Assembly (NCBI GenBank): GCA_009920915.1
Contig: RFZB01000001.1
Coordinates: 2,025-66,024, forward strand
Source: Sphingomonadaceae bacterium
GTDB taxonomy: Bacteria > Pseudomonadota > Alphaproteobacteria > Sphingomonadales > Sphingomonadaceae
Length of the DNA: 64,000 nucleotides
Direction of reading: 5' to 3'
The position numbers and the translations under genes were made by a program. Positions 30,152-44,987 of the stretch are shown in pieces. The notes under the pieces were generated by a model that saw only the letters and a program-made list of their open reading frames with translations, was not told where the DNA came from and ran no database searches. Position 1 is the stretch's first letter, and each line of letters starts with the position of its first letter.

Positions 30152-30471
30152 GCCTTGGCTCCTGCCAGCGGCGTATATGTGATCAACATTCTACACCCGT
30201 TCTTACTGCCGGCCCGGTGCAGGGTGCCTGGCATACGCAGGACAAAATCGCCCGGACCATAGCTTGCGTCATCATCAAAGAAATCGCCCTCAAGCACATA
30301 AATTTGCTCAATTTCATCATGCGCGTGCAACAGACCTAAAGGGCCGGGTTCGGCCTTTAGGATCATCGTGCGATAGCCCCGTGGGTCATCAATCAGCGAC
30401 AAAGTGTCGCTGCCCGCGGGCCATGCGCCGGCAGGAATTTTGAGTGACCCATGAGGCGGCAGATGCGCCAT
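30148..30471 (-). CDS. small cupin-domain protein (ChrR-like cupin)
   Basis: 107 aa with cupin motifs [16 protein letters not shown] and [12 protein letters not shown]. Coupled to the genes on both sides (TAATG and ATGA). Confidence 0.8.
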
Positions 30472-31718
30472 TAGGACGCCTTGGTCAGCGCGGCTTTTGC
30501 GCGGTCCACATAAAAATCTTTGAAATCTTCAACCAGCTTTTCTTCCACGGCATAGCTGCCGGGGCGATAGCCATCGGTTGAAATGCCGCGGTGATTGATG
30601 GCGGAAAAATGCCCGTCCTGCTCATTTGTCCGCCGCCAAAGCGCCGCCAGATGGTCTGAATCATAATCCACGCCTTCCACTGCGTCTTCATGGACAAGCC
30701 AACTGGTGCGCAACAGCGTCTTATCTGCGGCCACGGGGGTCAGCGAGAAGGTGACGACATGATCGCAGCAGAAATGGCTCCAGCTATTGGGTTGGGTCCA
30801 GACGGACAGGCTAGAGCTTTCTGGCACTGAGAAGGGGCCAATCAGCTTTTTGCAGGCCAGCTTGCCATCAATGGATTGGGTTACCGCGCCATTGGCAAGC
30901 GGCAGGCGCGCCATGCGGTGCCACCAGCCATCGGGAAACTCAATCAAATCACGGAAAATGCCCATATCTTTCCACTGGGCGCGCTTTGCCTCCACCATGG
31001 CGTCGAATGCGCGGTCATCAACAACATCTTCCTCGCCATCTTCAGGCAGGCCTTTGCCAAAGCCATAGGTGCCCAGCACGCTGATCAATTCCGGGTGACC
31101 GCCATCGCAGTGATAGCATTCCCGGTTGTTTTCCATAACCAGCTTCCAATTGGCGTCTTCGATGTAATTATCCTGCACTGCGACTTTGCAGCGCTCCAGA
31201 TCATAGACGGCAATTTGGTCAACAATGTCGGCTTTTACCCGGTCAATTGGCGGGGGATTATCATCCATGCAGATAAAGATCATGCCGCCCAGATTTTCCA
31301 GCGCGACAGGGGCAAGGCCATTGTCCTTTTTGTCAAAGCCCTCTGGCATCCCGCGTGCGGCGAGCAATGCGCCATCTAGGCCATAGCTCCATTGGTGATA
31401 GGGACAGGTGAGGCGCGGCGTGCGGCCCCGCTGCTCCTCACAAATCCGCGCGCCACGGTGGCGGCAGCTGTTCCAAAAGGCACGCACTTCATTGTCCCGC
31501 CCGCGCACAATGATGATGGAGTTGTGTGCAACTTCAAACAGGAAATAATCGCCCGGATTTTTCACATGCGCGACAGTGCAGGCGTAAAGCCAAACTGACT
31601 TTAGCATCACCTGCGTGTCGAATTTGAACGCCTCTTCGCTGACATACAGGTCGCGGGGGAGAGTCATTCCCTTGCGGTTCTGGTTCAGCAACTGAGCAAT
31701 TGGTTCAAAGCGGGACAT
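30471..31718 (-). CDS. Rieske oxygenase alpha subunit #2 (GbcA-like, probable glycine betaine demethylase)
   Basis: CRHRG...CPYHQW, ENNRECYHC...HPEL and WLVHEDAVEGVDYD...EQD. It lies in an operon with a DMG dehydrogenase-like gene, soxBDAG and betA. Confidence 0.9.
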   Translation of the reverse strand: MSRFEPIAQLLNQNRKGMTLPRDLYVSEEAFKFDTQVMLKSVWLYACTVAHVKNPGDYFLFEVAHNSIIIVRGRDNEVRAFWNSCRHRGARICEEQRGRTPRLTCPYHQWSYGLDGALLAARGMPEGFDKKDNGLAPVALENLGGMIFICMDDNPPPIDRVKADIVDQIAVYDLERCKVAVQDNYIEDANWKLVMENNRECYHCDGGHPELISVLGTYGFGKGLPEDGEEDVVDDRAFDAMVEAKRAQWKDMGIFRDLIEFPDGWWHRMARLPLANGAVTQSIDGKLACKKLIGPFSVPESSSLSVWTQPNSWSHFCCDHVVTFSLTPVAADKTLLRTSWLVHEDAVEGVDYDSDHLAALWRRTNEQDGHFSAINHRGISTDGYRPGSYAVEEKLVEDFKDFYVDRAKAALTKAS

Positions 31719-31723
31719 AGGCC

Positions 31724-34231
31724 TTAGCTCCTGAGCGCGGTGTTATCCGGGTCAAAGGGTGAATCAGGAATGATTGTTGCCCGATGCAGCGTGCCGAGAA
31801 TGGCAATGTCAAACTCGGCGCCTTCAACCGCAAGCTCGGGCCGGATCATCGCCAGCGCCAGGCTTTTGCCAACGCGCCAGCCATAGCCACCCGAGGTTGC
31901 ACGCCCAACAATCTCGCCATTTTGATAAATCGCTTCTGATCCGCGCGCATCGGCGTCGGTCACGCCATGGACTTCCAGAGTGACCAGCTTGTTGGCGGCC
32001 CCTTTGGCTTGCCATGCCAGCAGAGCATCCTTGCCATAAAAGTCGGGCTTTTTAAGGCTGATGAAGCGATCAAGCCCGCTTTCATAGGCGGAATATTCGA
32101 TCGAAAGCTCTCTTGGGATGAGTTTATAGCTCTTTTCCAGAGCCATGGAGGTCATCGCGCGGATGCCGAAGGGCTTAATGTTAAATTCTGCGCCGGCCTC
32201 CATCAAAAGGTCGAAGATATAGTTTTGCATTTCAATGGGATGGTGGATTTCCCAGCCAAGTTCACCAATGAAGTTAACACGCAGGGCATCAACTTGTGCC
32301 ACGCCAAGGCTGATCCTTTGGCCCGTCAGCCATGGGAATGCGGCGTTAGATAGATCTGCATCTGTAATCTTTTGCAGCGTGTCGCGCGCGCGCGGGCCTG
32401 CCAGCACCAGCACGCCCATCGCCGTGGTTAGCCGTTCAAAATTGACGGAGCCATCACGCGGCATCGCCTTTTTGAGATAATCATGGTCATGCCGTTCATA
32501 CGCGCCTGCGGAGACAAGGTAATAACGCTGCGGTGCGACCTTATAGACAGTAAATTCGCTGCGCACGCCGCCCTTGGACGTCAGCAAATAAGACAAGGTG
32601 ACGCGGCCGACTTTCTTAGGCACGGCATTGGTCAGCAGGCCATCCAGCCAGCTTTCCGCGCCGGGGCCAGAAATTTCGCACTTGGCAAAGGCACTCATAT
32701 CCTGAATGCCAACATTTTCAGTAACATGGCGGCATTCATTGCCAACATGTTCGAAGTAATTGGACCGGCGGAACGACCATTTTTCGCGGATCGCTTCACC
32801 CGGCACAACGGGGTGATTGTCGTTCAACAGAACGTCCGGTTTGTTGAGGTCAGCGGCAGTGAGTTCATAGCCCGGTGGGGCGAACCAATTTGGCCGCTCC
32901 CAGCCAAAGACCGAGCCGAAAACAGCGCCCAGCGCCTTCATCCGGTCATAGCAAGGGGTGCGGCGCAGCGCCCGGGCTACTTCACGCTCTTCATCAGGAT
33001 AATGGACGGTGAAGACCTTGGCATAGGCTTCCTCATTTTTCTTAATGAGATAGCCACGGCCCGCATAATCGCCAAAGCGCCGGGGGTCGACGCCCATCAT
33101 ATCAATGCTGGGTTCGCCTTCGACAATCCAGTGGGCCAATTGCCATCCCGCGCCGCCGGCTGCCGTGACGCCAAAGCTATGGCCTTCATTGAGCCAGAAA
33201 TTCTTAAGGCCCCAGGCCGGGCCAACAATGGGGGACCCATCCGGCGTATAGGCAATGGCCCCGTTATAAACTTTCTTGATGCCCACTTCGCCAAAGGCGG
33301 GCACGCGGTTCATAGCGGCCAGAACATAAGGCTCTAGTCGTTCCAGCGCATCGGGGAAAAGCTCATATTCGCTATTGGCAGCGGGGCCATCGACGTAACA
33401 AGCAGGTGCACCAACTTCATAGGGGCCAAGCAACAGGCCGCCCGCTTCTTCGCGCATATAATAGCTGGCGTCAGATTCCCGCAAAACCCCCATTTCCGGC
33501 AGGCCTTGCTTTTTGCGCTCCATGATAGCCGGGTGTTGTTCCGTCACGATATATTGGTGCTCAACGGGGATCACGGGAATATCGAGGCCCACCATCGCGC
33601 CGGTCTGGCGCGCGAAATTGCCGGAACAGGAAATGACGTGCTCGCACACAATATCGCCTTGATCCGTTGAGACGCACCATTCGCCATTGGGCAGCTGGGT
33701 GATCGCGGTGACCGTTGTGTTGCGGTAAATTGTTGCCCCGCGTTGCCGTGCGCCCTTGGCCAGCGCCTGCGTCAAGTCCGCGGGCTGAATATAGCCATCC
33801 TGCGGATGCTGGATTGCGCCGATAACGCCATCCGTATTGCACAAGGGCCAAATGTCTTTGACCTGCTCAGGCGTTAAAAAGTTGACATCGACGCCAATGG
33901 TGCGGGCAACCCCGGCATAATAATGATATTCATCCAGCCGATCCTGCGTAGTCGCCAAGCGGATATTGGTAACTTGCGAAAACCCGACATTAAGGCCAGT
34001 TTCTTCCTCAAGGCTGGGGTAGAGGCCGACGGAATATTGGTGCAGTTTGCCGACAGAATAGCTGAGATTGAAAAGAGGGAGCAATCCCGCCGCGTGCCAA
34101 GTTGAGCCAGAGGTGAGTTCTTTCCGCTCAAGCAGGACAACGTCGCTCCATCCCATTTTTGCAAGGTGATAGAGCGTACTGACGCCCACTACGCCGCCGC
34201 CAATAACCACTGCCCGCGCTGTCGATTTCAT
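31724..34231 (-). CDS. FAD-dependent GcvT-domain dehydrogenase #1 (dimethylglycine dehydrogenase-like)
   Basis: VIGGGVVG, LTSGSTWHAAG (flavinylated His context), YTPDG, FGWERPNWF and C-terminal GcvT domain RVNFIGELGWEIH. Start at ATG 34231. Confidence 0.9.
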   Translation of the reverse strand: MKSTARAVVIGGGVVGVSTLYHLAKMGWSDVVLLERKELTSGSTWHAAGLLPLFNLSYSVGKLHQYSVGLYPSLEEETGLNVGFSQVTNIRLATTQDRLDEYHYYAGVARTIGVDVNFLTPEQVKDIWPLCNTDGVIGAIQHPQDGYIQPADLTQALAKGARQRGATIYRNTTVTAITQLPNGEWCVSTDQGDIVCEHVISCSGNFARQTGAMVGLDIPVIPVEHQYIVTEQHPAIMERKKQGLPEMGVLRESDASYYMREEAGGLLLGPYEVGAPACYVDGPAANSEYELFPDALERLEPYVLAAMNRVPAFGEVGIKKVYNGAIAYTPDGSPIVGPAWGLKNFWLNEGHSFGVTAAGGAGWQLAHWIVEGEPSIDMMGVDPRRFGDYAGRGYLIKKNEEAYAKVFTVHYPDEEREVARALRRTPCYDRMKALGAVFGSVFGWERPNWFAPPGYELTAADLNKPDVLLNDNHPVVPGEAIREKWSFRRSNYFEHVGNECRHVTENVGIQDMSAFAKCEISGPGAESWLDGLLTNAVPKKVGRVTLSYLLTSKGGVRSEFTVYKVAPQRYYLVSAGAYERHDHDYLKKAMPRDGSVNFERLTTAMGVLVLAGPRARDTLQKITDADLSNAAFPWLTGQRISLGVAQVDALRVNFIGELGWEIHHPIEMQNYIFDLLMEAGAEFNIKPFGIRAMTSMALEKSYKLIPRELSIEYSAYESGLDRFISLKKPDFYGKDALLAWQAKGAANKLVTLEVHGVTDADARGSEAIYQNGEIVGRATSGGYGWRVGKSLALAMIRPELAVEGAEFDIAILGTLHRATIIPDSPFDPDNTALRS

Positions 34232-34323
34232 AACCACTGCCTAACCGATCCAAATTGCATCGTGATTGGCCCGCTATGTCAGCCGACGCTATGGTTCGAC
34301 AACTCTGGGCGCGCACCCAAGCC

Positions 34324-34356
34324 AATATATAAGACAATCTTATGTATTATATAAGC
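34324..34356. promoter_or_regulatory. AT-rich LysR-type operator AATATATAAGA-CAA-TCTTATGTATT plus an adjacent ATAAG half-site, upstream of the choline/betaine operon
   Basis: 10 of 11 bp dyad with a TAAGA-N3-TCTTA (T-N11-A) core, about 90-120 bp upstream of the dehydrogenase start. Confidence 0.55.
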
Positions 34357-34380
34357 AATAACAAATTTGGGGGACGACCC

Positions 34381-36720
34381 TTAGAGGAAGAGTTCAGCCA
34401 TGGCATCAAATATGGCATCCGCATCCAGCCGATAGACGCTGTAGAGATCTGGCAAATCGCCCGTCTGGCCAAAGCTGGATATGCCCAAGGGGCTGACGCG
34501 CATACCGCGCACCGAACCCAGCCAAGACAGCGCTGCGGGAGAGCCGTCAATCACCGTGACCAGCCCTGCATCAGGGGCCAAATCAGCTAAGAGCTGCTCA
34601 ATATGGCTAGGCCCAGCTGTCGTCTCAGTCCAGCGTGCGGCGTGCCGGGCAGACCAGTCCCCATGGAGCAAGTCGGGCGACGTCACATTCATCAGCCCAA
34701 TGCCGGGAAGATCATCTGCCAGCTGCTCCCACGCGCTTAACACTTCTGGCGCGATGGCCCCGGTAAAGATGATGGCTGCCTTTGCCCCTTGGCGGGGTGC
34801 CCGCAGCCAATAGGCTCCCTTCAGTGCATCGGCCTGCCAATCGTCATTCTCGCGCGCAATTTGCGGGATAACGCGTGTGCTTAAGCGCAAATAGACTGAG
34901 CTTCCGTCGGGCTTTTGCAAATGTTCAAAGGCCCAGCGCATGGTCAGCGCAACTTCATCGGCCCAGGCCGGTTCAAAATAGACAAGATTTGGCTGGCCCA
35001 TGCCAATTAGCGGCGTGTTGATGGATTGGTGGGCGCCGCCCTCTGGGCCAAGCGTTAGGCCAGATGGGGTGCCCACAAGCAAAAAGCGTGCATCCGAATA
35101 ACAGCCATAGTTCAAGGCATCTAAGCCGCGCGCAATAAAGGGGTCATACACAGTGCCCACCGGGATCAGCCGTGTCCCGAAATGAGGCCCCGCCAAGCCA
35201 AGCGAGGTGAGGGCGAGGAAGAAGTTATTTTCTGCAATGCCCAATTCAATATGCTGGCCGGCAGCGTGCCCATCCCATTTTTGGGCAGATGGAATTTTGG
35301 CCTCGCGAAAGACGTCAATCACTTCTGACCGCCGAAACAGGCCACGCTGGTTCACAAATGCGCCAAGATTGGTGGTCTGCGTCACATCGGGTGCCGTGGT
35401 GACGATGCGATCTGCCAGCGGCTCTCCTGACTTGGCCAGCTCTAACAGAATATTCCCAAAGGCGGCCTGAGTGGACTGCGTCTCGCCCGATGGTGCTGGC
35501 AGGGCGGCCGGCACTGGGATGGGGGCTGAGCTTTGGTCACCCGCGCGCTTATTGGCGAGTGGGCTGCGATCAACAAACGCCTTAAGTCGTGCAGCTTGAT
35601 TGTCCCCAATCCCGCCAAAAGGATCCCATTCTGCGCCTTTGGGAATGCCAAGGCTTTCGCGCAATTGTTCAATCTGGCCGGGGTTCATCATGCCGCTGTG
35701 ATTGTCTTTATGCCCAGCCAGCGGCAGGCCGTACCCTTTCACAGTATAAGCGATGAACAGAGTAGGGCGGTCATCCTGAGCGGCATCAAAGGCGTCAATT
35801 AAGGTTTCAATGCAATGGCCGCCCAAATTTGTCATCAAATGGGCAAGACCTGCGTCGTCAAAGCTTTCAATTAACTTGCGGGCACGGGCATTGCCGCCGA
35901 TATCAGCCATTAATCGCGCACGCCACGCGGCGCCGCCTTGATAGGTGAGCGCTGCAAATTCGGCATTGGGGCAATTGTCGATCCAGTCCGAAATCGCCTG
36001 CCCGCCCGGTTTATCAAAAATCTCTCGCTGCAACTTTCCGCTTTTCAGCGTGACAACGCGCCAGCCACAGGTCTCAAAAATATCGTCAAAGCGCCGAAAC
36101 ATGCGGTCGGCTGTCGTGCTGTCGAGGGATTGGCGGTTATAGTCCACCACCCACCAGCAGTTGCGAATATCATGCTTATAGCCCTCAATCAGGCATTCAT
36201 AGATATTGCCTTCGTCCAACTCGGCATCGCCCATCAGGGCAATCATGCGTCCGGCATCGCTTTCTGCCATCTGACCATGGGCAATCAGATAGTCTTGCAC
36301 CAGGCTTGAAAAGGCTGTGATTGCAACGCCCAGCCCCACAGACCCAGTCGAAAAATCGACGGGGATGTTGTCCTTGGTGCGCGAAGGATAGCTTTGCGCG
36401 CCGCCAAGAGCACGAAAACGCTGCAATTTTTCGAAAGACTGGTTGCCCAAAAGATAATGGATTGCCTGCAGCACGGGGCCAGCGTGCGGCTTCACTGCCA
36501 CCTTATCTTGCGGGCGCAGCGCATGAAAATAGAGCGCTGCCATAATCGCGGTCATCGATGAGCAGCTGGCTTGATGCCCGCCGACTTTCAGCCCGTCACG
36601 CTTTTCACGAATGTGATTGGCATTGTGCACGGTCCACGCTGACAGCCAGCGCAGGCGCGTGTCGAGCGTTTCAATGGTTTCAATCAATTCCGCGCGCGCG
36701 TCTGCCACCAATTGTGCCAT
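34381..36720 (-). CDS. ThDP-dependent 2-oxoacid dehydrogenase E1, homodimeric AceE/MdeB-like (transketolase-like fold)
   Basis: KVGGHQASCSS, DFSTGSVGLG, ThDP motif MGDAELDEGNIYE...DYNRQSLD, HIELGIAENN, YDPFIARG and EGGAHQS. Divergent from an Lrp regulator, as with mdeB/mdeR. Confidence 0.85.
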   Translation of the reverse strand: MAQLVADARAELIETIETLDTRLRWLSAWTVHNANHIREKRDGLKVGGHQASCSSMTAIMAALYFHALRPQDKVAVKPHAGPVLQAIHYLLGNQSFEKLQRFRALGGAQSYPSRTKDNIPVDFSTGSVGLGVAITAFSSLVQDYLIAHGQMAESDAGRMIALMGDAELDEGNIYECLIEGYKHDIRNCWWVVDYNRQSLDSTTADRMFRRFDDIFETCGWRVVTLKSGKLQREIFDKPGGQAISDWIDNCPNAEFAALTYQGGAAWRARLMADIGGNARARKLIESFDDAGLAHLMTNLGGHCIETLIDAFDAAQDDRPTLFIAYTVKGYGLPLAGHKDNHSGMMNPGQIEQLRESLGIPKGAEWDPFGGIGDNQAARLKAFVDRSPLANKRAGDQSSAPIPVPAALPAPSGETQSTQAAFGNILLELAKSGEPLADRIVTTAPDVTQTTNLGAFVNQRGLFRRSEVIDVFREAKIPSAQKWDGHAAGQHIELGIAENNFFLALTSLGLAGPHFGTRLIPVGTVYDPFIARGLDALNYGCYSDARFLLVGTPSGLTLGPEGGAHQSINTPLIGMGQPNLVYFEPAWADEVALTMRWAFEHLQKPDGSSVYLRLSTRVIPQIARENDDWQADALKGAYWLRAPRQGAKAAIIFTGAIAPEVLSAWEQLADDLPGIGLMNVTSPDLLHGDWSARHAARWTETTAGPSHIEQLLADLAPDAGLVTVIDGSPAALSWLGSVRGMRVSPLGISSFGQTGDLPDLYSVYRLDADAIFDAMAELFL

Positions 36721-37330: not shown

Positions 37331-37357
37331 CAAGAACACTAAACAAGGGGCGGTGGG

Positions 37358-38740
37358 ATGGCAAAATCAGGGCTGGTGGATCGTGTGGATCCGGTGCCAA
37401 CACAAGAGTTGAGCCGAAGCCTGAAGGCACGCCATGTTTCGATGATTACCTTTGGGGGCATCATTGGCGCGGGGCTTTTTGTCGGATCCTCCACAGCCAT
37501 TAGCGCCATTGGGCCGGCTGCTGTTCTTAGTTATGCGCTTGCAGGGTTTCTGGTCCTGCTGGTCATGCGCATGATCTCTGAAATGGCAATGGCGCTGCCG
37601 GGATTGCAGACATTTCCTGATTTTGCACGCGCGGGCGTTGGCAATTGGGCAGGTTTCCTTGTGGGCTGGCTCTATTGGTATTTTTGGGTTGTCGTGATTG
37701 CGATTGAGGCAATTGCGGGGGCCAAGATTATTCATGGCTGGTTGCCGCAATATGAGGTGTGGGAAATTGGCGTCACATTAATGGCCGTGCTGACGGGCAT
37801 TAATCTGATGTCGGCGCGCTCATATGGTGAGTTTGAATTCTGGTTTGCGTCCACAAAAGTCGTTGCCATCTTGGTCTTCATTCTTGTGGCCGCTGCCTAT
37901 GCCTTTGGATTAACGTCGCCTACTGGGCCGACATTTTCCAACCTGACCGCGCATGGCGGCTTTGCCCCGGCCGGAATTGCGGCGATTTTTGCAGGCGTTG
38001 CGACGACGATTTTCTCCTTATGCGGGGCAGAAATTGCGACCTTGGCTGCCGCTGAGTCAGACGAAGGCAAGCAGACAATCGCCCGGATGACGATTTCTGT
38101 CTCTGTGCGAATTCTTGTCTTCTTCGTCCTGTCCATTTTGATGATTGTGTCGGTGGTTCCTTGGACGGACATTGAAGTTGGCGTGTCCCCATTTGCCCAT
38201 GCGCTTCGGGTGATGGGCTACCCTTCGGCGGATCTTATCATGAACGCCATTGTTCTGGTTGCTGTTCTTTCCTGCCTGAATTCAGGGATTTACATCACAT
38301 CGCGGGCAATGTTCGGCTTGGCGCAAAATGGCGATGCGCCCCAGTCTTGCGTTGTCCTAAGCCGCTCGCGCGTGCCGGCACGGGCAATTTTGATCGCCAG
38401 TCTGTTCAGCTATGGTGCCTTGGCGGCCTCTGTTCTGGCACCTGACCGCGTGTTCAATTTCTTGGTGACGTCATCTGGCGCAATCATGTTGTTTATCTAT
38501 TTGATTATCGCGTTCGCGCAGTTGCGCCTGCGGGCCCGATTTGAAGCAGAGGACCCGTCGGCCCTTCACATCCGTATGTGGCTCTATCCCTATGGAACAT
38601 GGGCGGCGATGGCAGGCATGGCCGGTGTTCTGCTGCTGATGGGCCTCTCAGACGTGCACGCGAGCGAGCTTTGGGCCAGTGTCCTTGTGGCGACAGGGTT
38701 CTTGCTTGCTTATGCGGTAAAGAAGCGCGCCCAAGCCTAG
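37358..38740 (+). CDS. APC-family amino acid permease (GabP-like)
   Basis: LKARHVSMITFGGIIGAGLFVGS, GWLYWYFW, FGEFEFWFA-like YGEFEFWFASTKV and LSCLNSGIY. Confidence 0.9.
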   Translation: MAKSGLVDRVDPVPTQELSRSLKARHVSMITFGGIIGAGLFVGSSTAISAIGPAAVLSYALAGFLVLLVMRMISEMAMALPGLQTFPDFARAGVGNWAGFLVGWLYWYFWVVVIAIEAIAGAKIIHGWLPQYEVWEIGVTLMAVLTGINLMSARSYGEFEFWFASTKVVAILVFILVAAAYAFGLTSPTGPTFSNLTAHGGFAPAGIAAIFAGVATTIFSLCGAEIATLAAAESDEGKQTIARMTISVSVRILVFFVLSILMIVSVVPWTDIEVGVSPFAHALRVMGYPSADLIMNAIVLVAVLSCLNSGIYITSRAMFGLAQNGDAPQSCVVLSRSRVPARAILIASLFSYGALAASVLAPDRVFNFLVTSSGAIMLFIYLIIAFAQLRLRARFEAEDPSALHIRMWLYPYGTWAAMAGMAGVLLLMGLSDVHASELWASVLVATGFLLAYAVKKRAQA

Positions 38741-38839
38741 AAACACACGCAGAATTTTTCCGATCGCCATATTCTTTTTAATGGCGCGATACGCGGTCGC
38801 CCCTGCATAAGTGCGTCCGGAGTATATCGGAGCAGAGAC

Positions 38840-40156
38840 ATGACTTTAGGAAATGATCCGCTGGCTGCCTTGTGGATGCCATTCACTGCCAACCGCGCCT
38901 TCAAGGCGCAGCCGCGCCAGCTGGTCGCTGCCAAGGACATGCATTATGAAAGCGCTGATGGCCGGCAGATTCTGGACGGCACCGCGGGATTGTGGGCGGT
39001 CAATGCGGGCCATTGCCGCCCGTCCATTGTCGAGGCCATTCAGAAAACAGCTGCAGAGCTAGATTATGCACCGCCCTTTCAATTGGGGCATCCTTTGTCG
39101 TTTGAACTGGCCCGCCGCATTGCAGCGTTGATGCCGCAAGGCTTGGACCGCATCTTTTTCACCAATTCAGGGTCTGAGTCAGTTGATACGGCGCTGAAGA
39201 TTGCGTTGGCCTATCAGCGCGCCCGGGGTGAGGGCACGCGGACGCGCCTGATTGGGCGTGAACGTGGCTATAATGGCGTTGGTTTTGGTGGCATTTCCGT
39301 GGGCGGCATCGTCAATAATCGTCGCCAATTTGGGACGCTGCTGACAGGGGTGGATCATCTGCCCCACACGCATAATCTTGCGCATAATGCCTTTTCAAAG
39401 GGCCAGCCGCTTTGGGGCGCCCATTTGGCGGATACGCTTGAGTCCATCATTGCCCTGCATGGCGCCGAAACAATTGCCGCGGTTATTGTAGAGCCAATGG
39501 CAGGATCTACTGGGGTGCTTGTTCCGCCCGTGGGTTATCTTGAAAAGCTAAGAGAAATTACAACAAAACACGGCATCGTATTGATTTTTGACGAAGTTAT
39601 TACCGGATATGGCCGTGTTGGGGGGGCAACCGCCTCTGGAACGCTGGGCGTAACGCCGGACATTATTACGATGGCCAAGGGTTTAACCAACGCCGCGGTA
39701 CCCATGGGGGCCGTTGCCGTGAGCCGGCATATTCATGACGGGGTTGTTGAGGGCGCAGCAGACGGGATTGAGCTGTTCCATGGGTATACTTATTCAGGCC
39801 ACCCGCTTGCCGCAGCCGCGGGCATTGCGACGCTGGACCTCTATCAATCTGAGGGAATTTTTGAACATGCCCAGTCGCTCCACAGCTATTGGCAAGAGGC
39901 TGTTCACAGCCTGCAGGGCCGCCGGCACATTATCGACGTGCGTAACATGGGGATTGTCGCTGGGATTGAGCTAGATCCGCGTCCGGGTGCGCCCACCAAA
40001 CGGGCCATGGAGCTGTTCCATAAATGTTTTGATGCCGGCCTGTTGGTGCGCGCCACGGGAGACATTATTGCTCTATCGCCGCCACTCATCCTGCAAAAAG
40101 CGCATATTGATGAAATGGTTGGCCGCATCGCCGACATTGTCGAAACGATCGATTAA
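38840..40156 (+). CDS. class III omega-amino acid:pyruvate aminotransferase (beta-alanine/pyruvate type)
   Basis: LWMPFTANR, FFTNSGSESVDTALKIA, IVEPMAGSTG, IFDEVITGYGR, PLP lysine TMAKGLTN and HGYTYSGHP. Confidence 0.92.
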   Translation: MTLGNDPLAALWMPFTANRAFKAQPRQLVAAKDMHYESADGRQILDGTAGLWAVNAGHCRPSIVEAIQKTAAELDYAPPFQLGHPLSFELARRIAALMPQGLDRIFFTNSGSESVDTALKIALAYQRARGEGTRTRLIGRERGYNGVGFGGISVGGIVNNRRQFGTLLTGVDHLPHTHNLAHNAFSKGQPLWGAHLADTLESIIALHGAETIAAVIVEPMAGSTGVLVPPVGYLEKLREITTKHGIVLIFDEVITGYGRVGGATASGTLGVTPDIITMAKGLTNAAVPMGAVAVSRHIHDGVVEGAADGIELFHGYTYSGHPLAAAAGIATLDLYQSEGIFEHAQSLHSYWQEAVHSLQGRRHIIDVRNMGIVAGIELDPRPGAPTKRAMELFHKCFDAGLLVRATGDIIALSPPLILQKAHIDEMVGRIADIVETID

Positions 40157-40165
40157 AGATCAGGG

Positions 40166-40202
40166 GAGGGGCGGACGCCGCTACGTTCGCCTCTTTTTTT
40201 CT
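40166..40202 (+). terminator. intrinsic terminator after the aminotransferase
   Basis: Imperfect GC stem GAGGGGCGGACG / CGTTCGCCTC followed by a long T-run. Confidence 0.7.
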
Positions 40203-40209
40203 TGCGACG

Positions 40210-41292
40210 TTAGAGTGTCAGCACAATCTTGCCGACATGGCGCTTGCTAAGAAAGGTGGTCTGCGCCTCAACAATATCGGCCAAATCATAAGTCGCAGCG
40301 ATACAGGGCTTTATCTCGCTCTGTTCAATTGCATGGATAAGGTTCGGAAATATCTCAGGGGTTAAGACCGTACAGCCGAACAGTTGAAGATCTTTCAGAT
40401 ACAGCGTTCGTAAGTCGAGGTCGACCATGGGGCCAGATATTGCCCCGGCAATGCCATAGCGCCCGCCAGGCTTGAGGCAGTTGAGAATAGAGCCAAAGCG
40501 GGGTCCACCAACGCAATCAACCGCCGCATCAAGCGAAGAGGCGCCAAAAATGCGGTCAATATCCGCATCTCGATCAATCACATGATCCGCACCTAAGGCC
40601 TTTACAGTTGAGGCTTTTTCACCGCCGACCATAGCAATCACCTCGGCACCGCGTCGTTTGGCAAGCTGGACAGCCGCTGACCCAACACCACCGGAGGCGC
40701 CCGTTACCAACACGCGATCTCCCTGGCCAAGCGAAATGCGGGTCAGCATGTTTTCGGCAGCAGAATAGGCGCATGGGAAACTTGCAAGATCAACGTCACT
40801 GAGCGCACTGGTAATGGCATGGGCGAAGCGGGCGGGCACGCGCGCATATTCCGCAAAGGCGCCATCGACTTCTGACCCAAAATATTGGACGTCAAAGCCT
40901 GCATCAGTCCGGAAAACAGGCTCTACAAGAACACGTTCTCCAACCCGTTTAGCGTCAATATTCTGACCAACGGCCACAATATACCCGCAGGCATCCGCCC
41001 CTTGAATGCGCGGGACATGGAACGGTGTGCCAGACCAGCCATCATCTTTGGCGCCGGCCAGTCCGGTCGCTGCGCCGCTTTCTGTTGGCGCCGCAACGGC
41101 CTTGGAATACCAGCCGATGCGGGTGTTGATATCGGTATTGTTGACGCCCGCTGCGGCGACCCGGATCAACACATCATCTGGGCCGCAGTGCGGCACGGGG
41201 ACATCGTGTCGCAATTCCAGCCTTTCATAGCCGCCATGGCCAGTCAGGACGACTGCACGCATGGTGGCGGGCAGGGGGCGTGCGCCAGTCAC
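40210..41292 (-). CDS. medium-chain dehydrogenase/reductase (alcohol dehydrogenase / quinone oxidoreductase-like, catalytic-Zn ligands not evident)
   Basis: MRAVVLTGHGG, AAAGVNNTDINTRIG, IQGADACG, VLVTGASGGVGSAAVQLAK and GKIVL. The start is uncertain (GTG 41292, ATG 41262 or ATG 41328). Confidence 0.87.
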   Translation of the reverse strand: MTGARPLPATMRAVVLTGHGGYERLELRHDVPVPHCGPDDVLIRVAAAGVNNTDINTRIGWYSKAVAAPTESGAATGLAGAKDDGWSGTPFHVPRIQGADACGYIVAVGQNIDAKRVGERVLVEPVFRTDAGFDVQYFGSEVDGAFAEYARVPARFAHAITSALSDVDLASFPCAYSAAENMLTRISLGQGDRVLVTGASGGVGSAAVQLAKRRGAEVIAMVGGEKASTVKALGADHVIDRDADIDRIFGASSLDAAVDCVGGPRFGSILNCLKPGGRYGIAGAISGPMVDLDLRTLYLKDLQLFGCTVLTPEIFPNLIHAIEQSEIKPCIAATYDLADIVEAQTTFLSKRHVGKIVLTL

Positions 41293-41297
41293 GCCGA

Positions 41298-42539
41298 TTA
41301 GGTCACGGGGAACTGGTTGAGATACCATTTTTGGAAGTTCATGACGCTGCCTTCCTGATCTGAATAGCGGCCCGGGCGATAGCGGCTCGACTTGATCCCC
41401 GTTTGGTTGTTTTCAGTGATGATTTTGTCTTGCGTTGTAGTGGCGTGATAACCCCAAATCATTTTCTCGATATCGACTTGATCTTCCGTCGCATCGCCAT
41501 TGACCAGCCAAATCATCTCAACATCGGTTTCCAACGCCCCACGCGGCGTGAACTGGAACAGAATTGCAAAATGGTCGTCTGCGACAATTTGGCTGAAGGG
41601 GCTAAAGCTTAGATGCATCCGGCCGCCATCTGGCGCCGTCCGCTTCCCCATCAACGGGGCAGGAGCAGTGCCATCTTGGGTTTCCGACGCGCGGCCTTCC
41701 TTATTCATCCGCTGCATCAGGAGGCGGAGATGGCTGCTGTCAGGCGCTTCATCAATTGTGCCGATCGGACGACCCAGCGCGGCGGCTTTCTCCTCCCATG
41801 CCTTCACCTTGGGCGCGAAATTGGCAATGGCGTCTGCAGGCCCGGAACTGGGGCCAGCGCCAACCGCTACCAGCGTTTCCGGCGCGTGCATCGAACAAAA
41901 TTCGGGGTGCGACGGCACGCAGTGATAGCATTCAAAGAAATTCTCGACGACCAGCTTCCAATTCGCGGTCGTCGGATAACTTCCGGCATAGGCAATGCGG
42001 GCATTGTCCATTCCCTGATAGGCAAGGATTGGGCCCATATCCCCAAAGGTTGCGTCAAAGTCATCCGGTTCATCCTCGCTCATATTCACAAAGATGAGCC
42101 CGTGGAAAACGCGAACATGGCAGGCAAACAGGCTGTTTTCAGCCTTGTTAAAATCTTCAGGCATGAGCCGTGCTGAAATCAGCGACCCGTCCAGCCCAAA
42201 GGTCCAGGCGTGATAGGGGCAGACCAGCCGTGGTGCATTGCCGCTTTCGGCTGAACACAGCGTCGATCCGCGATGCCGGCAAACATTAAAGAAAGCGCGG
42301 ACACTGTCATCATTTTCGCGGATGACGATGATCTGTTCAGCACCAACTTTGAACAGGAAATAATCCCCCTTATTGGGAATGCGCGAGACGTGCCCGGCCA
42401 CCAGCCATTTACGGCTGATGACATGCTCCATATCAGCCTTGAACACCGCATCGCTGACGTAAAATTCCTGATCAAAGCTGTAGCCAATTTTTACATTGGC
42501 AATCAGGCGGCGCATCATTTCTGTCTGGGCGTCGGTCAT
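41298..42539 (-). CDS. Rieske oxygenase alpha subunit #3 (quaternary-amine oxygenase family)
   Basis: NVCRHRG...CPYHAW, ENFFECYHCVPSHPEF and C-terminal TTTQD. TAATG coupling to the upstream dehydrogenase. Confidence 0.9.
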   Translation of the reverse strand: MTDAQTEMMRRLIANVKIGYSFDQEFYVSDAVFKADMEHVISRKWLVAGHVSRIPNKGDYFLFKVGAEQIIVIRENDDSVRAFFNVCRHRGSTLCSAESGNAPRLVCPYHAWTFGLDGSLISARLMPEDFNKAENSLFACHVRVFHGLIFVNMSEDEPDDFDATFGDMGPILAYQGMDNARIAYAGSYPTTANWKLVVENFFECYHCVPSHPEFCSMHAPETLVAVGAGPSSGPADAIANFAPKVKAWEEKAAALGRPIGTIDEAPDSSHLRLLMQRMNKEGRASETQDGTAPAPLMGKRTAPDGGRMHLSFSPFSQIVADDHFAILFQFTPRGALETDVEMIWLVNGDATEDQVDIEKMIWGYHATTTQDKIITENNQTGIKSSRYRPGRYSDQEGSVMNFQKWYLNQFPVT

Positions 42540-44983
42540 TAGATTTTGATCCGTGCATTAGAGGGGTCGTAGAGCGGTTTCAGCGAAGCCGTGGCAGGAT
42601 AGCGCACGCCGGCAATTTCAATCTCAAAGTCATCAGCACCAATTGGACCAACGACACCGCCGTCTGGGTCCGTCACATAGCCCAAGCCACAGGCAGCCCC
42701 CAGGCCATGCGCATACATGCCAGAGCGAATATAGCCGACAATGCGATCGCCCTTCCAAATGGGCTCATTATGGTAGAGCATGGGCTCTGGCGACTTCAGA
42801 AGGAACTGCACAAGGCGCTGTTTCAGCCCGTCTTCTTTCTGCTTGAGGAGCGCTTCTCGGCCAATAAACCCGCCGGGCTTATCCATCCGCACAGCAAAGC
42901 CAAGCCCAGCTTCGAGCGGCGTATCTTCATCCGTGATGTCATGGCCCCAATGGCGATAGGCCTTTTCCATGCGCAGGGCATTTAAGGCATGATAGCCGCA
43001 ATGTTTCAAGCCAAAGGCTGCCCCGGCCGCCACGATTTCGTCGTACACGCCCGTCATAAACTCTGTGGGAATATATAATTCCCAACCAAGTTCCCCAACA
43101 TAGGTGATGCGCGACGCGCGCAAGATGGCATAGCCTAATTCAATTTCTTGGCTGGTGCCAAAGGGGAAGGCCTCGTTTGACAGATCATTGGGGCAAATGG
43201 ATTGCAGCAAGTCGCGCGCCTTTGGCCCCATGATGGAAATCACGCCCATAGCGGACGAGATGTTCGTCGCAATCGCGTGCGCATCATCGGGAATATGACG
43301 TTTCAGCCAGTTAAAGTCTCGGATTTCGGTCTCGGCGCCCGTGACGATCAAATAGGCTGTCTCAGACAGGCGCGTGACTGTTAAATCGGCCTCAATGCCC
43401 CCTTTGTCGTTCAACCACTGCGTATAGACCAGCTTGCCAACAGGTACGTCGACGTCATTGGCGCAAATGCGGTTCAGCACCGTGCAGGCATCGCGCCCTT
43501 CCAGCCGGAATTTGGCGAAAGAGCTTTGATCGAATAGGCCAACAGCTTCGCGAACCGCTTTGCACTCGGCCGCATTCGCTTCAAACCAATTTTGACGGCC
43601 ATAGCTATATTCATATTTGGGCGTTGTGCCGGGCGTTGCATACCAATTTGGCCGTTCCCAGCCAAAGGCTTCGCCATGGCAGGCCCCTGCAGCCACCAGA
43701 CGGTCATGAATGGCGGATCGACGCACGCCGCGCGCCGTTTCATATTGTTTGAACGGGTAATGGGTTGCGTAAAGCAGGCCGAGGCTTTCTGTCACACGTT
43801 CGCGCAGATATTTCCGGTTGATTTGGAACGGCATATTGCGCCGAATGTCGACTGTCCAAAGGTCGGCAGGGGGCATGCCATCGCGGATCCAATCGGCCAT
43901 CACCTTGCCAACACCGCCTGCCGATTGCAGGCCAATCGAATTCAAGCCAGCGGCAACGAAACAGCCCTTTAGCTCCGGGCTTTCCCCCAAATGATACCGG
44001 ACATCGGGCGTAAAGCTCTCTGGCCCGCAGAAGAATTTTTGAATCCCTGCATTTTCCAGCGCAGGCACGCGCCGCATGGCATCCATCAACAACGGTTCAA
44101 AATGCTCAAAGCTGCCGGCAATTTCGTCAAAGCAAAAATCTTCGGAAATGCCATCCATGCCCCAAGGCCGGGCATTGGGCTCAAAGGCGCCCACCAGCAG
44201 CTTGCCCGCATCATATTTGTAATAGCCGCAATAATCATAATCACGCAGCACGGGCAGGGTGGGGTCAATCCCCTCCACACCTTCAAACAGCACATAATAA
44301 TGTTCGCACGCATGGAGCGGGGCCGCGACGCCCACGCTGGCTGCCAGATCGCGCGTCCACATGCCGCCGCAAATGACGACATAATCGGCATCAATGGCAC
44401 CATATTCGGTATCAACGCCCGTCACCCGATCGCCATTGTGGCGAATGCGTGTGACCTTGGTGTTTTCAAAGATCTGGGCGCCGCCGGTGCGCGCGCCCTT
44501 GGCCAGTGCTTGGGTGATATCTACGGCATTGGCATAGCCATCGCTTGGAATGTGGATGCCGCCAACGACATCCTCCACATTCACAATTGGCGCGAGGGAT
44601 TTAATCTCATCTGCTGTCACAACATGAACAGGCAGATCAAAGACTTTCGCCATCGACGCGCTGCGCTTTAACTCTTCAAACCGTTCCGCATTGGTCGCCA
44701 TCGAGATGGAGCCGCATTGCCGATAGCCCGTGGCTTGGCCCGTTTCCGCTTCCAGCCCGCGATACAGCTCGCCCGTATATTTGGCGAGCTTGGTCATATT
44801 GATCGAGGTGCGCAGCTGGCCAACCAGCCCGGCGGCGTGCCACGTTGTGCCGCTGGTCAGCTGTTTGCGTTCCAGCAGGACGACATCATCCCAACCGATT
44901 TTGGTCAGGTGATAGGCAATGGAACACCCGATGACCCCGCCACCGATGATGACGACCCGCGCCTTTTTGGGAAGTTCACTCAT
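42539..44983 (-). CDS. FAD-dependent GcvT-domain dehydrogenase #2 (sarcosine dehydrogenase-like)
   Basis: IIGGGVIG, LTSGTTWHAAG, GPESFTPD, GWERPNWY and RITYVGELGWELY. Confidence 0.9.
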   Translation of the reverse strand: MSELPKKARVVIIGGGVIGCSIAYHLTKIGWDDVVLLERKQLTSGTTWHAAGLVGQLRTSINMTKLAKYTGELYRGLEAETGQATGYRQCGSISMATNAERFEELKRSASMAKVFDLPVHVVTADEIKSLAPIVNVEDVVGGIHIPSDGYANAVDITQALAKGARTGGAQIFENTKVTRIRHNGDRVTGVDTEYGAIDADYVVICGGMWTRDLAASVGVAAPLHACEHYYVLFEGVEGIDPTLPVLRDYDYCGYYKYDAGKLLVGAFEPNARPWGMDGISEDFCFDEIAGSFEHFEPLLMDAMRRVPALENAGIQKFFCGPESFTPDVRYHLGESPELKGCFVAAGLNSIGLQSAGGVGKVMADWIRDGMPPADLWTVDIRRNMPFQINRKYLRERVTESLGLLYATHYPFKQYETARGVRRSAIHDRLVAAGACHGEAFGWERPNWYATPGTTPKYEYSYGRQNWFEANAAECKAVREAVGLFDQSSFAKFRLEGRDACTVLNRICANDVDVPVGKLVYTQWLNDKGGIEADLTVTRLSETAYLIVTGAETEIRDFNWLKRHIPDDAHAIATNISSAMGVISIMGPKARDLLQSICPNDLSNEAFPFGTSQEIELGYAILRASRITYVGELGWELYIPTEFMTGVYDEIVAAGAAFGLKHCGYHALNALRMEKAYRHWGHDITDEDTPLEAGLGFAVRMDKPGGFIGREALLKQKEDGLKQRLVQFLLKSPEPMLYHNEPIWKGDRIVGYIRSGMYAHGLGAACGLGYVTDPDGGVVGPIGADDFEIEIAGVRYPATASLKPLYDPSNARIKI

Positions 44984-44987
44984 CAGA

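What the first reader, a model, noticed from the sequence alone, without database searches (positions are those of the whole stretch)
30471..44983. Repeated 'GcvT flavo-dehydrogenase -> Rieske alpha' coupling with no Rieske reductase in 64 kb
Seen: Rieske #2 starts 5 bp after dehydrogenase #1, Rieske #3 overlaps dehydrogenase #2 (TAATG), and Rieske #1 is co-operonic with an FAD/[2Fe-2S] protein. No FNR/ferredoxin reductase (GbcB/CntB/Stc4 type) or ETF gene is present. Known: these oxygenases need a reductase, and DMG/sarcosine dehydrogenases need an electron acceptor. Inference: either one reductase elsewhere serves all three, or electrons from the dehydrogenase demethylation steps drive the oxygenase step directly, making a self-sufficient demethylation loop.
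Basis: partly seen in the sequence, partly recalled or inferred. Interest (0 to 1): 0.65.

Follow-up and report, generated by a model that had tools for sequence, protein, structure and literature searches.

The report
Betaine demethylation operons lacking Rieske reductase
A freshwater sphingomonad carries three operons that each pair one iron-sulfur (Rieske) oxygenase with two flavin enzymes to strip the three methyl groups off choline-type betaines, and the oxygenases' usual electron-donor gene is missing nearby, most likely because it sits elsewhere in the genome.

Summary
Three GbcA/Stc2-type Rieske oxygenase genes lie at 7260-8465, 30471-31718 and 41298-42539. No PDR/FNR-type reductase, GR-type ferredoxin reductase, ferredoxin or ETF gene is detectable in the 64 kb window or in about 15 kb of flanks.

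The absence extends across the clade. In 228 related loci (3.47 Mb; Sphingomonadales, Caulobacteraceae and others) there are no reductase hits. By contrast, 78 of 80 GbcB-type reductase genes from other Proteobacteria sit directly beside a GbcA-family oxygenase gene.

The repeated dehydrogenase-Rieske adjacency is best read as pathway logic. Each module has one Rieske enzyme for the quaternary N-methyl group and two flavoprotein demethylases for the tertiary and secondary amines. The module at 20783-36720 is a choline/glycine-betaine to glycine operon (betA, BCCT, DMGDH, gbcA-like, soxBDAG).

The most likely electron source is an unlinked, shared reductase, as documented for sphingomonad oxygenases. 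I could not confirm this genome-wide. Direct dehydrogenase-to-Rieske electron flow has no support: the dehydrogenases are covalent-FAD enzymes with no Fe-S domain. It is not excluded.

The result is a moderately interesting variant of a known system.

The parts
7260..8465 (+). R1: Group V (GbcA/Stc2-type) Rieske oxygenase alpha subunit, 401 aa
   Evidence: Rieske motif; NF058607 GbcA 423.5 bits, below the 670 cutoff; 44% identical to Paracoccus GbcA; CYHC motif.
8452..9717 (+). PLP enzyme of the cystathionine gamma-synthase family. Its start overlaps the R1 stop.
   Evidence: PF01053; NF005455 507.9 bits against a 504 cutoff; start taken from the gene call in L180; conserved after R1 in most of 80 loci.
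9717..11180 (+). OoxA/HcnB-like flavoprotein with four conserved Cys (probable BFD-type [2Fe-2S]).
   Evidence: Pyr_redox_2 and SO_alpha_A3 hits, with Fer2_BFD below threshold; 40% identical to Pden_4898; PDB neighbours are the SoxA alpha subunit and PH1363, with rubredoxin and putidaredoxin reductases more distant; second Rossmann motif degenerate.
11177..12313 (+). OoxB-like DAO-family amine dehydrogenase subunit
   Evidence: 59% identical to Pden_4899; soxB and ThiO family hits.
12310..17093 (+). soxB1-soxD1-soxA1-soxG1: first heterotetrameric sarcosine-oxidase-type set
   Evidence: Pfam DAO, Fer2_4, SO_alpha_A3 and GCV_T; SoxD-like ORF at 13566-13829.
20783..25373 (-). BCCT transporter (23808-25373), choline dehydrogenase BetA (22144-23811) and a PF12831 flavoprotein (20783-22165)
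   Evidence: TIGR01810 betA 835 bits against a 732 cutoff; BCCT subfamily model passed; Pfam.
25392..30471 (-). cupin_7 (30148-30471), soxB2 (28898-30151), soxD2 (28624-28896), soxA2 (25891-28627, broken by a 125-bp deletion at 26372/26373) and soxG2 (25392-25898)
   Evidence: Pfam; comparison with L001-L009.
30471..31718 (-). R2: Group V Rieske oxygenase alpha subunit, probably the oxygenase of a glycine betaine monooxygenase
   Evidence: NF058607 411 bits, below cutoff; E=1e-91 to Stc2 (3VCA); operon context; dN/dS about 0.05; fragments present in river metatranscriptomes.
31724..34237 (-). DH1: dimethylglycine-dehydrogenase-type flavoenzyme (DAO + FAO_M + GCV_T + GCV_T_C). The start is probably the ATG at 34231.
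   Evidence: Pfam; E=1e-180 to rat and human DMGDH; TWHAAG motif.
34381..36720 (-). TPP-dependent E1/transketolase-like enzyme of unknown role, at the head of the operon
   Evidence: Present in only part of the relatives.
36845..40156 (+). AsnC regulator, amino-acid permease and omega-aminotransferase AptA, transcribed divergently
   Evidence: Pfam; NF052567 720 bits against a 500 cutoff.
40210..41328 (-). MDR (Zn-ADH/quinone-oxidoreductase-like) NAD(P)-dependent enzyme whose start overlaps the end of R3
41298..42539 (-). R3: divergent Group V Rieske oxygenase alpha subunit, substrate unknown
   Evidence: NF058607 290 bits; 32-34% identical to R1 and R2; the closest plasmid homologue (Mesorhizobium, 42%) has a PDR/VanB reductase gene directly upstream.
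42539..47402 (-). DH2 (42539-44983) and DH3 (44988-47402): two further DMGDH/SARDH-type dehydrogenases upstream of R3
   Evidence: Pfam; TWHAAG motif; order DH3-DH2-R3 kept in about 60 loci.
47567..50913 (+). SDR, 3-hydroxyisobutyrate-dehydrogenase-like enzyme and aldehyde dehydrogenase, transcribed divergently from DH3
62531..63388 (+). purU (formyl-THF deformylase), which links the demethylations to C1 oxidation. NAD-dependent formate dehydrogenase genes lie just beyond the window.
   Evidence: Pfam; right-flank gene calls.

Best explanation
The window is a methylated-amine (betaine) catabolic island of a freshwater Sphingomonadaceae bacterium. It holds three parallel modules.

In each module, a Group V Rieske monooxygenase alpha subunit (R1, R2, R3) hydroxylates a methyl group on the quaternary nitrogen. 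A flavin amine dehydrogenase cannot attack that nitrogen because it has no lone pair. Two flavoprotein demethylases then remove the remaining two methyl groups:
- DH1 plus SoxBDAG with R2
- OoxAB plus SoxBDAG with R1
- DH3 plus DH2 with R3

The dehydrogenase-Rieske adjacency is therefore ordinary clustering of consecutive pathway steps with translational coupling. The R2 module is choline -> glycine betaine -> dimethylglycine -> sarcosine -> glycine.

The Rieske enzymes most likely receive NAD(P)H-derived electrons from a reductase, with or without a ferredoxin, that is encoded elsewhere and shared among them. The dehydrogenases most likely hand their electrons to the housekeeping ETF. NADH would be regenerated by C1 oxidation (purU, then the formate dehydrogenase next to the window).

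Shown: gene content, junctions, conservation, purifying selection, presence of operon fragments in metatranscriptome runs, and the local absence of reductase genes. Inferred: substrates, the remote reductase, and ETF use.
For: BetA and AptA pass their curated cutoffs. DH1 matches mammalian DMGDH at E=1e-180. R2 matches Stc2 at E=1e-91.

The cores are conserved: DH1-R2-(cupin)-soxBDAG-BCCT in about 70 species loci, R1-PLP-OoxA-OoxB-soxBDAG in 80 loci, and DH3-DH2-R3 in about 60 loci. Novosphingobium has the variant ALDH (possible betB)-betA-DH1-R2-soxBDAG.

The same 1 Rieske + 2 flavoprotein pattern recurs with different flavoproteins. A Yoonia plasmid carries a 2-ER/OYE-type enzyme and a DMGDH-like gene near the alpha gene, and a Leisingera plasmid has a 2-ER/OYE-type gene abutting it.

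dN/dS is about 0.05 for R2 and 0.07 for R3. River metatranscriptome runs hold contigs at least 99% identical, one of which spans the DH1/R2 junction.

Characterised or close relatives have a reductase gene directly adjacent: Paracoccus gbcAB (genetics in bioRxiv 10.1101/2023.12.12.567942), S. meliloti stc4, Cereibacter, and Mesorhizobium PDR/VanB next to an R3-like alpha gene. So the enzyme class needs one.

Sphingomonads are documented to share unlinked electron-transfer components. In R. wittichii RW1, benAB lacks benC and uses the plasmid-borne RedA2/Fdx3 (PMC12319509).

Pathway-level NADH recycling for a Rieske system is documented for TsaMBCD (PMC10579966).
Against: No reductase was actually found. 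There is none in the window, none in 9 kb to the right or 5.6 kb to the left, and none in 228 related loci covering 3.47 Mb.

A GbcB-profile scan of species genomes saturated, and its best 80 hits contained no sphingomonad. Whether these genomes hold any suitable reductase therefore remains untested.

All three Rieske proteins score below the NCBIfam GbcA equivalog cutoff, so substrate assignments rest on context only.
Confidence: 0.75

Rival explanations
1. An in-island Fe-S flavoprotein replaces the missing reductase. The OoxA-like protein (9717-11180; FAD plus a probable [2Fe-2S] cluster) would reduce the Rieske centre of R1, and perhaps of R2 and R3. The electrons would come either from NAD(P)H or from substrate oxidised by its partner OoxB.
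For: OoxA and OoxB follow R1 in nearly all of the 80 loci. In the most distant loci R1 is followed directly by OoxA-OoxB. Four Cys (CxC...Cx4C) are invariant in the nine OoxA homologues aligned and are absent from SoxA. OoxA is distantly related to rubredoxin and putidaredoxin reductases (E=1e-12 to 5e-7). No other reductase lies near R1 in any locus.
Against: In Paracoccus the orthologous pair sits beside a bona fide gbcB, so there it is not a substitute for the reductase. Its best structural relatives are the SoxA alpha subunit and the PH1363 chain of 1Y56, which I take to be the proline dehydrogenase alpha subunit; these belong to amine dehydrogenase complexes. The second dinucleotide-binding motif is degenerate in the window protein (LGSHDLA against GxGxxG) and is not conserved across the family. 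R2 and R3 operons in other genomes lack OoxA.
Confidence: 0.08
2. Electrons released by the GcvT-type dehydrogenases (DH1, DH2, DH3) pass directly, or through ETF, to the adjacent Rieske oxygenase. The result would be an NADH-independent, self-sufficient demethylation loop.
For: The adjacency is tight, translationally coupled and strictly conserved. No reductase gene is ever nearby. The stoichiometry would balance: 2 electrons are needed and 2 x 2 electrons are released.
Against: All three dehydrogenases have the SG[ST]TWHAAG motif, which I take from textbook knowledge to be the covalent-FAD site of mammalian DMGDH/SARDH. They have no Cys cluster or extra domain that could carry an Fe-S relay. 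From general knowledge rather than measurement here, covalent-flavin amine dehydrogenases and ETF operate near 0 mV or above, whereas Rieske centres of oxygenases sit near -150 mV, so the transfer would be uphill. R1 has no GcvT dehydrogenase beside it, so the coupling is not general. Homologous alpha subunits elsewhere use PDR/GbcB reductases. No precedent was found in the papers read.
Confidence: 0.03
3. Peroxide shunt. H2O2 made by the oxidase-type flavoenzymes of the same operon (SoxBDAG) would drive the Rieske mononuclear iron without any reductase.
For: [quoted passage not shown] R1, R2 and R3 all carry the Group V CYHC motif. Sox genes are co-operonic with R1 and R2.
Against: From general knowledge, shunt reactions of Rieske oxygenases are slow and poorly catalytic. 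The R3 operon has no Sox oxidase. Free H2O2 as an obligatory intermediate would be wasteful and toxic.
Confidence: 0.02
4. The Rieske genes are decaying remnants that no longer need a partner.
For: No reductase gene is nearby. The window carries two gene-breaking deletions, in soxA2 and in an amidohydrolase gene.
Against: All metal-ligand motifs are intact. dN/dS is 0.05-0.07 across dozens of species. Metatranscriptome runs hold fragments of the operon. The deletions are private to this window's source and do not touch the Rieske genes.
Confidence: 0.01

Closest known systems
Paracoccus denitrificans glycine betaine cluster: gbcA-gbcB (Pden_4896/4897), Pden_4898/4899, soxBDAG, folD, purU
   Same: The Rieske alpha subunit is 43-44% identical to R1 and R2. 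An OoxA-like (40%) and an OoxB-like (59%) pair lie downstream. SoxBDAG and purU are nearby. Genetics link gbcAB to growth on glycine betaine (bioRxiv 10.1101/2023.12.12.567942).
   Different: Paracoccus has the reductase gene gbcB immediately after gbcA. In the window a PLP (cystathionine-gamma-synthase family) gene occupies that position and no gbcB exists anywhere in the 64 kb.
GbcAB / BmoAB glycine betaine monooxygenase (Pseudomonas, Chromohalobacter) and CntAB/YeaWX carnitine monooxygenase
   Same: They belong to the same Group V Rieske class, with the CxH/CxxH cluster, the CYHC motif and an alpha-only oxygenase. The substrates are quaternary ammonium compounds (PMC10952381).
   Different: Those are two-gene systems with an adjacent reductase; 78 of 80 GbcB loci show an alpha gene directly adjacent. 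Here 0 of 228 loci have a reductase gene within 10 kb. The window proteins fall below the GbcA equivalog cutoff.
Stachydrine / hydroxyproline-betaine pathways (S. meliloti Stc2-Stc3-Stc4; Hpb genes of Paracoccus and Pelagibaca)
   Same: The logic is the same: a Rieske enzyme removes the first methyl from the betaine and a flavoprotein demethylase removes the next. Stc2 is the closest solved structure to R2. An MR_MLE/GMC/LysR cluster like the one beside the R3-like alpha gene on the Leisingera plasmid is present at 50890-54716.
   Different: Those pathways use an OYE/2-ER-type second demethylase and a Stc4/HpbC reductase (PMC11759058). The window uses DMGDH-type and Sox-type enzymes and has no Stc4.
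Rhizorhabdus wittichii RW1 benzoate dioxygenase BenAB with unlinked RedA2/Fdx3
   Same: It is a sphingomonad oxygenase whose usual adjacent reductase gene (benC) is missing. It works with shared electron-transfer proteins encoded elsewhere (PMC12319509).
   Different: It is an aromatic-ring dioxygenase (alpha-beta) using a GR-type reductase plus a ferredoxin. Whether Group V alpha-only enzymes can use such partners is untested.
TsaMBCD pathway (Comamonas): NADH recycling for a Rieske oxygenase
   Same: Downstream dehydrogenases of the same operon regenerate the reducing equivalents that the Rieske step consumes (PMC10579966).
   Different: The recycling runs through free NADH and a dedicated reductase (TsaB), not through direct protein-to-protein electron transfer.

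Membership tests
Group V Rieske non-heme iron oxygenases (GbcA/Stc2/CntA type) | Rieske [2Fe-2S] ligands CxH...CxxH in an N-terminal PF00355 domain | tested here: met
   CRHRG...CPYH is present in R1, R2 and R3. PF00355 hits.
Group V Rieske non-heme iron oxygenases (GbcA/Stc2/CntA type) | Catalytic PF00848 domain with His-His iron ligands and the Group V Cys-x-x-Cys pair next to them | tested here: met
   The sequence E-C-Y-H-C-x3-H-P-E is present in all three. PF00848 hits. The motif is described in PMC10952381.
Group V Rieske non-heme iron oxygenases (GbcA/Stc2/CntA type) | Closest solved structures are Stc2 and CntA rather than aromatic-ring dioxygenases | tested here: met
   For R2: 3VCA at 1.7e-91 and 6Y8J at 1.7e-35, against 1e-26 or weaker for aromatic-ring enzymes. 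R1 and R3 were not searched.
Glycine betaine monooxygenase oxygenase subunit GbcA (NCBIfam NF058607 equivalog) | Score at or above the curated cutoff of 670 bits | tested here: not met
   Scores are 423.5 (R1), 411.2 (R2) and 290.5 (R3) bits. They are relatives, not certified equivalogs.
Two-component Rieske monooxygenase system (oxygenase plus cognate reductase) | A PDR/FNR-type (GbcB/CntB/Stc4) or GR-type reductase gene beside or near the oxygenase gene | tested here: not met
   None in the window, in its flanks, or in 228 related loci. The positive control detected 80 of 80.
Two-component Rieske monooxygenase system (oxygenase plus cognate reductase) | A compatible reductase somewhere in the same genome | not testable with these tools
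Whole genomes cannot be fetched.
Dimethylglycine/sarcosine dehydrogenase family (THF-dependent, covalent FAD) | DAO + FAO_M + GCV_T + GCV_T_C domain architecture | tested here: met
   Present in DH1, DH2 and DH3. DH1 matches rat and human DMGDH at E=1e-180.
Dimethylglycine/sarcosine dehydrogenase family (THF-dependent, covalent FAD) | Histidine of the covalent flavinylation site (SG[ST]TWHAAG) | tested here: met
   The motif lies at residues 44-52 of all three. Assigning this motif to the flavinylation site rests on my knowledge of the mammalian enzymes.
Dimethylglycine/sarcosine dehydrogenase family (THF-dependent, covalent FAD) | ETF as electron acceptor | not testable with these tools
   No ETF gene is found in the window or in 2.6 Mb of related loci. 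ETF is normally a housekeeping gene located elsewhere.
Heterotetrameric sarcosine oxidase (SoxBDAG) | Four subunit genes in the order beta, delta, alpha, gamma | tested here: met
   There are two sets. soxA2 of this window is frameshifted by a 125-bp deletion.

The most novel reading that the evidence does not exclude
In this large freshwater alphaproteobacterial clade the Group V Rieske N-demethylases do not use a classical NAD(P)H reductase. Instead they would be fed by the flavoprotein demethylation steps of the same operon. The most plausible route is through the conserved OoxA [2Fe-2S] flavoprotein for R1. Other routes are ETF or the DMGDH-type enzymes, or H2O2 made by SoxBDAG. Any of these would give a redox-self-contained demethylation cascade.
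Probability: 0.1. Interest if true: 0.8.

Novelty: new variant of a known kind. Interest (0 to 1): 0.38.

Why it matters
Glycine betaine and related betaines are major labile carbon and nitrogen sources in fresh water. The operons described here are conserved in dozens of abundant Sphingomonadales and Caulobacteraceae lineages, and river metatranscriptome runs hold their fragments.

If the reductase is simply remote, the finding mainly improves annotation in three ways. It provides a gbcB-less DMGDH-gbcA-soxBDAG operon as a marker of betaine catabolism. It adds two sister modules for betaines that are still unknown. It warns against inferring absence of the pathway from absence of gbcB.

If no classical reductase exists in these genomes, this would be the first Rieske oxygenase powered by a downstream step of its own pathway. 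That would interest both enzymologists and biocatalysis groups.

Tried and rejected
- An exact 40-mer from R2 found nothing in the species genome collection. The organism is represented there only by relatives at up to 97% protein identity.
Its best 80 hits were Rhizobiales, Rhodobacterales and Pseudomonas, so it could not show whether sphingomonads have gbcB elsewhere.
- Sphingomonad plasmid hits to GbcB turned out to be about 636-aa proteins annotated only as 2Fe-2S-binding, sitting among metal-resistance genes. The Sphingopyxis PDR/VanB hit belongs to a P450 cluster. Neither was usable as a sphingomonad GbcB seed.
- Scans with R1 and R3 were made in the hope that some relative retained an adjacent reductase. 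None did.
- A weak ferredoxin-reductase-like hit in L040 is dihydrolipoamide dehydrogenase, next to an E2 gene.
- I first suspected frameshifts in an MFS gene at 56130-57428. That gap came from my own greedy ORF choice and the gene is intact.
- An exact-protein look-up of the type III PKS gene failed because I chose the wrong start codon. The M17 peptidase look-up gave the left flank instead.
- Structure prediction was not used.

Full report
**What is in the window.** Domain scans of every long ORF show a betaine and methylamine catabolic island. A search for the Rieske motif CxH...CxxH finds exactly three genes: R1 at 7260-8465 (+), R2 at 30471-31718 (-) and R3 at 41298-42539 (-). All three have PF00355 plus PF00848. 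All three hit the NCBIfam glycine-betaine-monooxygenase oxygenase model NF058607, at 423, 411 and 290 bits, which is below its 670-bit cutoff. All three carry the E-C-Y-H-C-x3-H-P-E motif with the Cys pair typical of Group V Rieske oxygenases acting on quaternary amines (PMC10952381). R2's closest solved structures are stachydrine demethylase Stc2 and two uncharacterised relatives (E about 1e-91), followed by carnitine oxygenase CntA.

DH1 (31724-34237; DAO + FAO_M + GCV_T + GCV_T_C) ends in TAA, followed by GGCCT and then the ATG of R2. DH2 (42539-44983) and R3 share TAATG. A third dehydrogenase, DH3 (44988-47402), lies 4 nt upstream of DH2. R2's stop overlaps a small cupin gene, and R1's stop overlaps a PLP-enzyme gene. 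Two genes after R1 lies a 487-aa flavoprotein (9717-11180) with four Cys (C344xC346...C399x4C404) and a sub-threshold BFD [2Fe-2S] hit.

**No reductase, ferredoxin or ETF is present.**
- tblastn with E. coli YeaX and Paracoccus GbcB finds nothing better than E=1 in the window.
- A profile built from six PDR/GbcB/Stc4 reductases, and one from their ferredoxin domain, finds nothing below E=0.7 in any six-frame segment of at least 40 aa.
- GR-type ferredoxin reductases and Rieske- or plant-type ferredoxins match only weakly, to OoxA and SoxA.
- ETF subunits give no hit.
- Near-identical metagenome contigs extend the view in both directions. To the right, 9 kb holds a Zn-ADH, NAD-dependent formate dehydrogenase fdsGBACD and molybdenum-cofactor genes. 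To the left, 5.6 kb holds housekeeping genes. Neither side has a reductase.

**Organism and conservation.** The window belongs to a freshwater Sphingomonadaceae lineage close to Chakrabartia and Sphingorhabdus. It is widespread in freshwater, river and estuary metagenomes.
- The core DH1-R2-(cupin)-soxB-soxD-soxA-soxG-BCCT is kept in essentially all of about 70 species-level loci. Some Novosphingobium loci have ALDH-betA directly upstream.
- R1-PLP-OoxA-OoxB-soxBDAG is kept in 80 loci spanning Sphingomonadales, Caulobacteraceae and Acetobacteraceae MAGs.
- DH3-DH2-R3-(MDR) is kept in about 60 loci.
- Across these 228 loci (3.47 Mb) the reductase and ferredoxin-domain profiles give zero hits at E<=1e-3. 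The same reductase profile detects 80 of 80 control loci.
- R2, DH1 and R3 are under strong purifying selection, with dN/dS of 0.04-0.07 (dS is near saturation, so the values are approximate).
- River metatranscriptome runs contain fragments of the R2 operon at 99% identity or more, including a contig across the DH1/R2 junction. DNA carry-over cannot be excluded.

**What is normal for this enzyme class.**
- In Paracoccus denitrificans, gbcA is followed immediately by gbcB. Genetics tie this pair to growth on glycine betaine (bioRxiv 10.1101/2023.12.12.567942).
- The same holds for S. meliloti (alpha gene followed by stc4) and Cereibacter.
- The closest plasmid homologue of R3 (Mesorhizobium, 42%) has a PDR/VanB reductase gene directly upstream.
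- Of 80 GbcB-type reductase loci from Rhizobiales, Rhodobacterales and Pseudomonas, 78 have a GbcA-family alpha gene directly adjacent.
- Local absence of the reductase is therefore a genuine, lineage-wide departure from the norm. It is not unique, however: Leisingera and Yoonia plasmids also lack a reductase gene within 9 kb of their R3-like genes.

**Why the dehydrogenase sits next to the Rieske gene.** Each module contains one Rieske enzyme and two flavoprotein amine demethylases:
- R2 + DH1 + SoxB2D2A2G2
- R1 + OoxAB + SoxB1D1A1G1
- R3 + DH3 + DH2

A trimethylammonium group has three methyls. The quaternary nitrogen cannot be oxidised by a flavin amine dehydrogenase and needs C-H hydroxylation. 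The resulting tertiary and secondary amines are classic substrates of DMGDH-type, Sox-type and OoxAB-type enzymes (established biochemistry).

In the R2 module the assignments fit step by step. BetA passes its equivalog cutoff (835 against 732 bits) and a BCCT transporter is present. DH1 matches mammalian dimethylglycine dehydrogenase at E=1e-180, and a SoxBDAG set follows. This reads as choline -> glycine betaine -> dimethylglycine -> sarcosine -> glycine.

The same 1 + 2 pattern appears on a Yoonia plasmid, which carries an OYE/2-ER-type enzyme and a DMGDH-like gene near the alpha gene. On a Leisingera plasmid an OYE/2-ER-type gene abuts the alpha gene. The repeated coupling is therefore explained by pathway clustering and does not by itself call for electron coupling.

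**Where the electrons most likely come from.** Sphingomonads are known to scatter and share electron-transfer components among oxygenases. In R. wittichii RW1, benAB lacks the usual benC and works with RedA2/Fdx3 encoded on a plasmid (PMC12319509). By analogy, one unlinked reductase, with or without a ferredoxin, probably serves R1, R2 and R3.

NADH supply is plausible within the island. purU lies at 62531-63388 and an NAD-dependent formate dehydrogenase sits just beyond the window. They would oxidise the C1 units released. This resembles the NADH-recycling logic shown for TsaMBCD (PMC10579966).

I could not verify a remote reductase.

**The exotic branch.** All three GcvT dehydrogenases have the SG[ST]TWHAAG site, which I take to be the covalent-FAD site of DMGDH/SARDH. 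They have no Fe-S motif or extra domain. From general knowledge, such enzymes and ETF work at potentials well above those of oxygenase Rieske centres. R1 has no GcvT dehydrogenase next to it. Direct transfer is therefore unsupported, though not excluded.

The best in-island candidate donor is OoxA. Its four Cys are invariant in the nine homologues aligned, and it accompanies R1 in nearly all of the 80 loci. Three points count against it:
- In Paracoccus it coexists with gbcB.
- Its nearest structural relatives are subunits of amine dehydrogenase complexes.
- Its second nucleotide-binding motif is degenerate in this organism.

A further speculative route is the peroxide shunt reported for CntA (PMC10952381), fed by H2O2 from SoxBDAG.

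**Verdict.** The unconventional half has no positive evidence. The system is a gbcB-less variant of known betaine demethylation clusters, with two sister modules of unknown substrate.

Noticed in passing
window 26372/26373 (inside soxA2, 25891-28627, minus strand): The window lacks 125 bp that are present in at least six other assemblies (99.9% and about 90% relatives). The loss frameshifts soxA2 to 753 aa instead of 953. A contig from a metatranscriptome run also continues into the missing segment. No flanking direct repeat is visible.
   Followed up: yes
window ~5321 (inside the amidohydrolase gene, 4610-6114, minus strand): A second private deletion of 226 bp, relative to four near-identical assemblies, truncates a 576-aa Amidohydro_3 protein. 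Two out-of-frame deletions in one window suggest either assembly artefacts or real pseudogenisation in the source genome.
   Followed up: partly
window 7260-17093; loci L184-L263: The operon R1 - PLP (cystathionine-gamma-synthase family) - OoxA - OoxB - soxBDAG is conserved in 80 loci across several alphaproteobacterial families. Its substrate is unknown. The PLP gamma-family enzyme hints at a gamma-substituted amino-acid betaine.
   Followed up: partly
window 34381-36720: A 779-aa TPP-dependent E1/transketolase-like enzyme heads the R2 operon here. In several Sphingomonas genomes it sits next to the R1 operon instead (for example L229, L231, L237-L242). Its role in betaine catabolism is unexplained.
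   Followed up: no
window 30148-30471: A 107-aa ChrR-type cupin (PF12973) is translationally coupled between R2 and soxB2. It was detected in roughly half of the related loci that cover that position. Its function is unknown.
   Followed up: no
window 50890-62260; L179; L217-L225: The cluster LysR - GMC oxidoreductase - MR_MLE enolase-superfamily enzyme - aldehyde dehydrogenase - MFS - TPR-sulfotransferase - TonB receptor resembles the genes beside an R3-like oxygenase on a Leisingera plasmid. In Novosphingobium it lies beside the R1 operon. It may be a hydroxyproline-betaine-type epimerase branch.
   Followed up: no
beyond window end (L168-L171, about +0.1 to +9 kb): A Zn-ADH, NAD-dependent formate dehydrogenase fdsGBACD, fdhD and molybdenum-cofactor biosynthesis genes follow purU and ybaK. 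They would complete C1 oxidation to CO2 next to the demethylation island.
   Followed up: partly
window 1-2692 and left flank (L180): A type III polyketide synthase, a methyltransferase and a FAD_binding_3 protein form a small cluster unrelated to the finding. It may make an alkylresorcinol-type product.
   Followed up: no
L178 (Yoonia plasmid), L179 (Leisingera plasmid): R3-like oxygenase genes there sit next to OYE/2-ER-type (Oxidored_FMN + Pyr_redox_2) demethylase-like genes. In Leisingera the stop and start overlap. No PDR reductase gene lies within 9 kb, so orphan Group V alpha genes are not confined to sphingomonads.
   Followed up: partly
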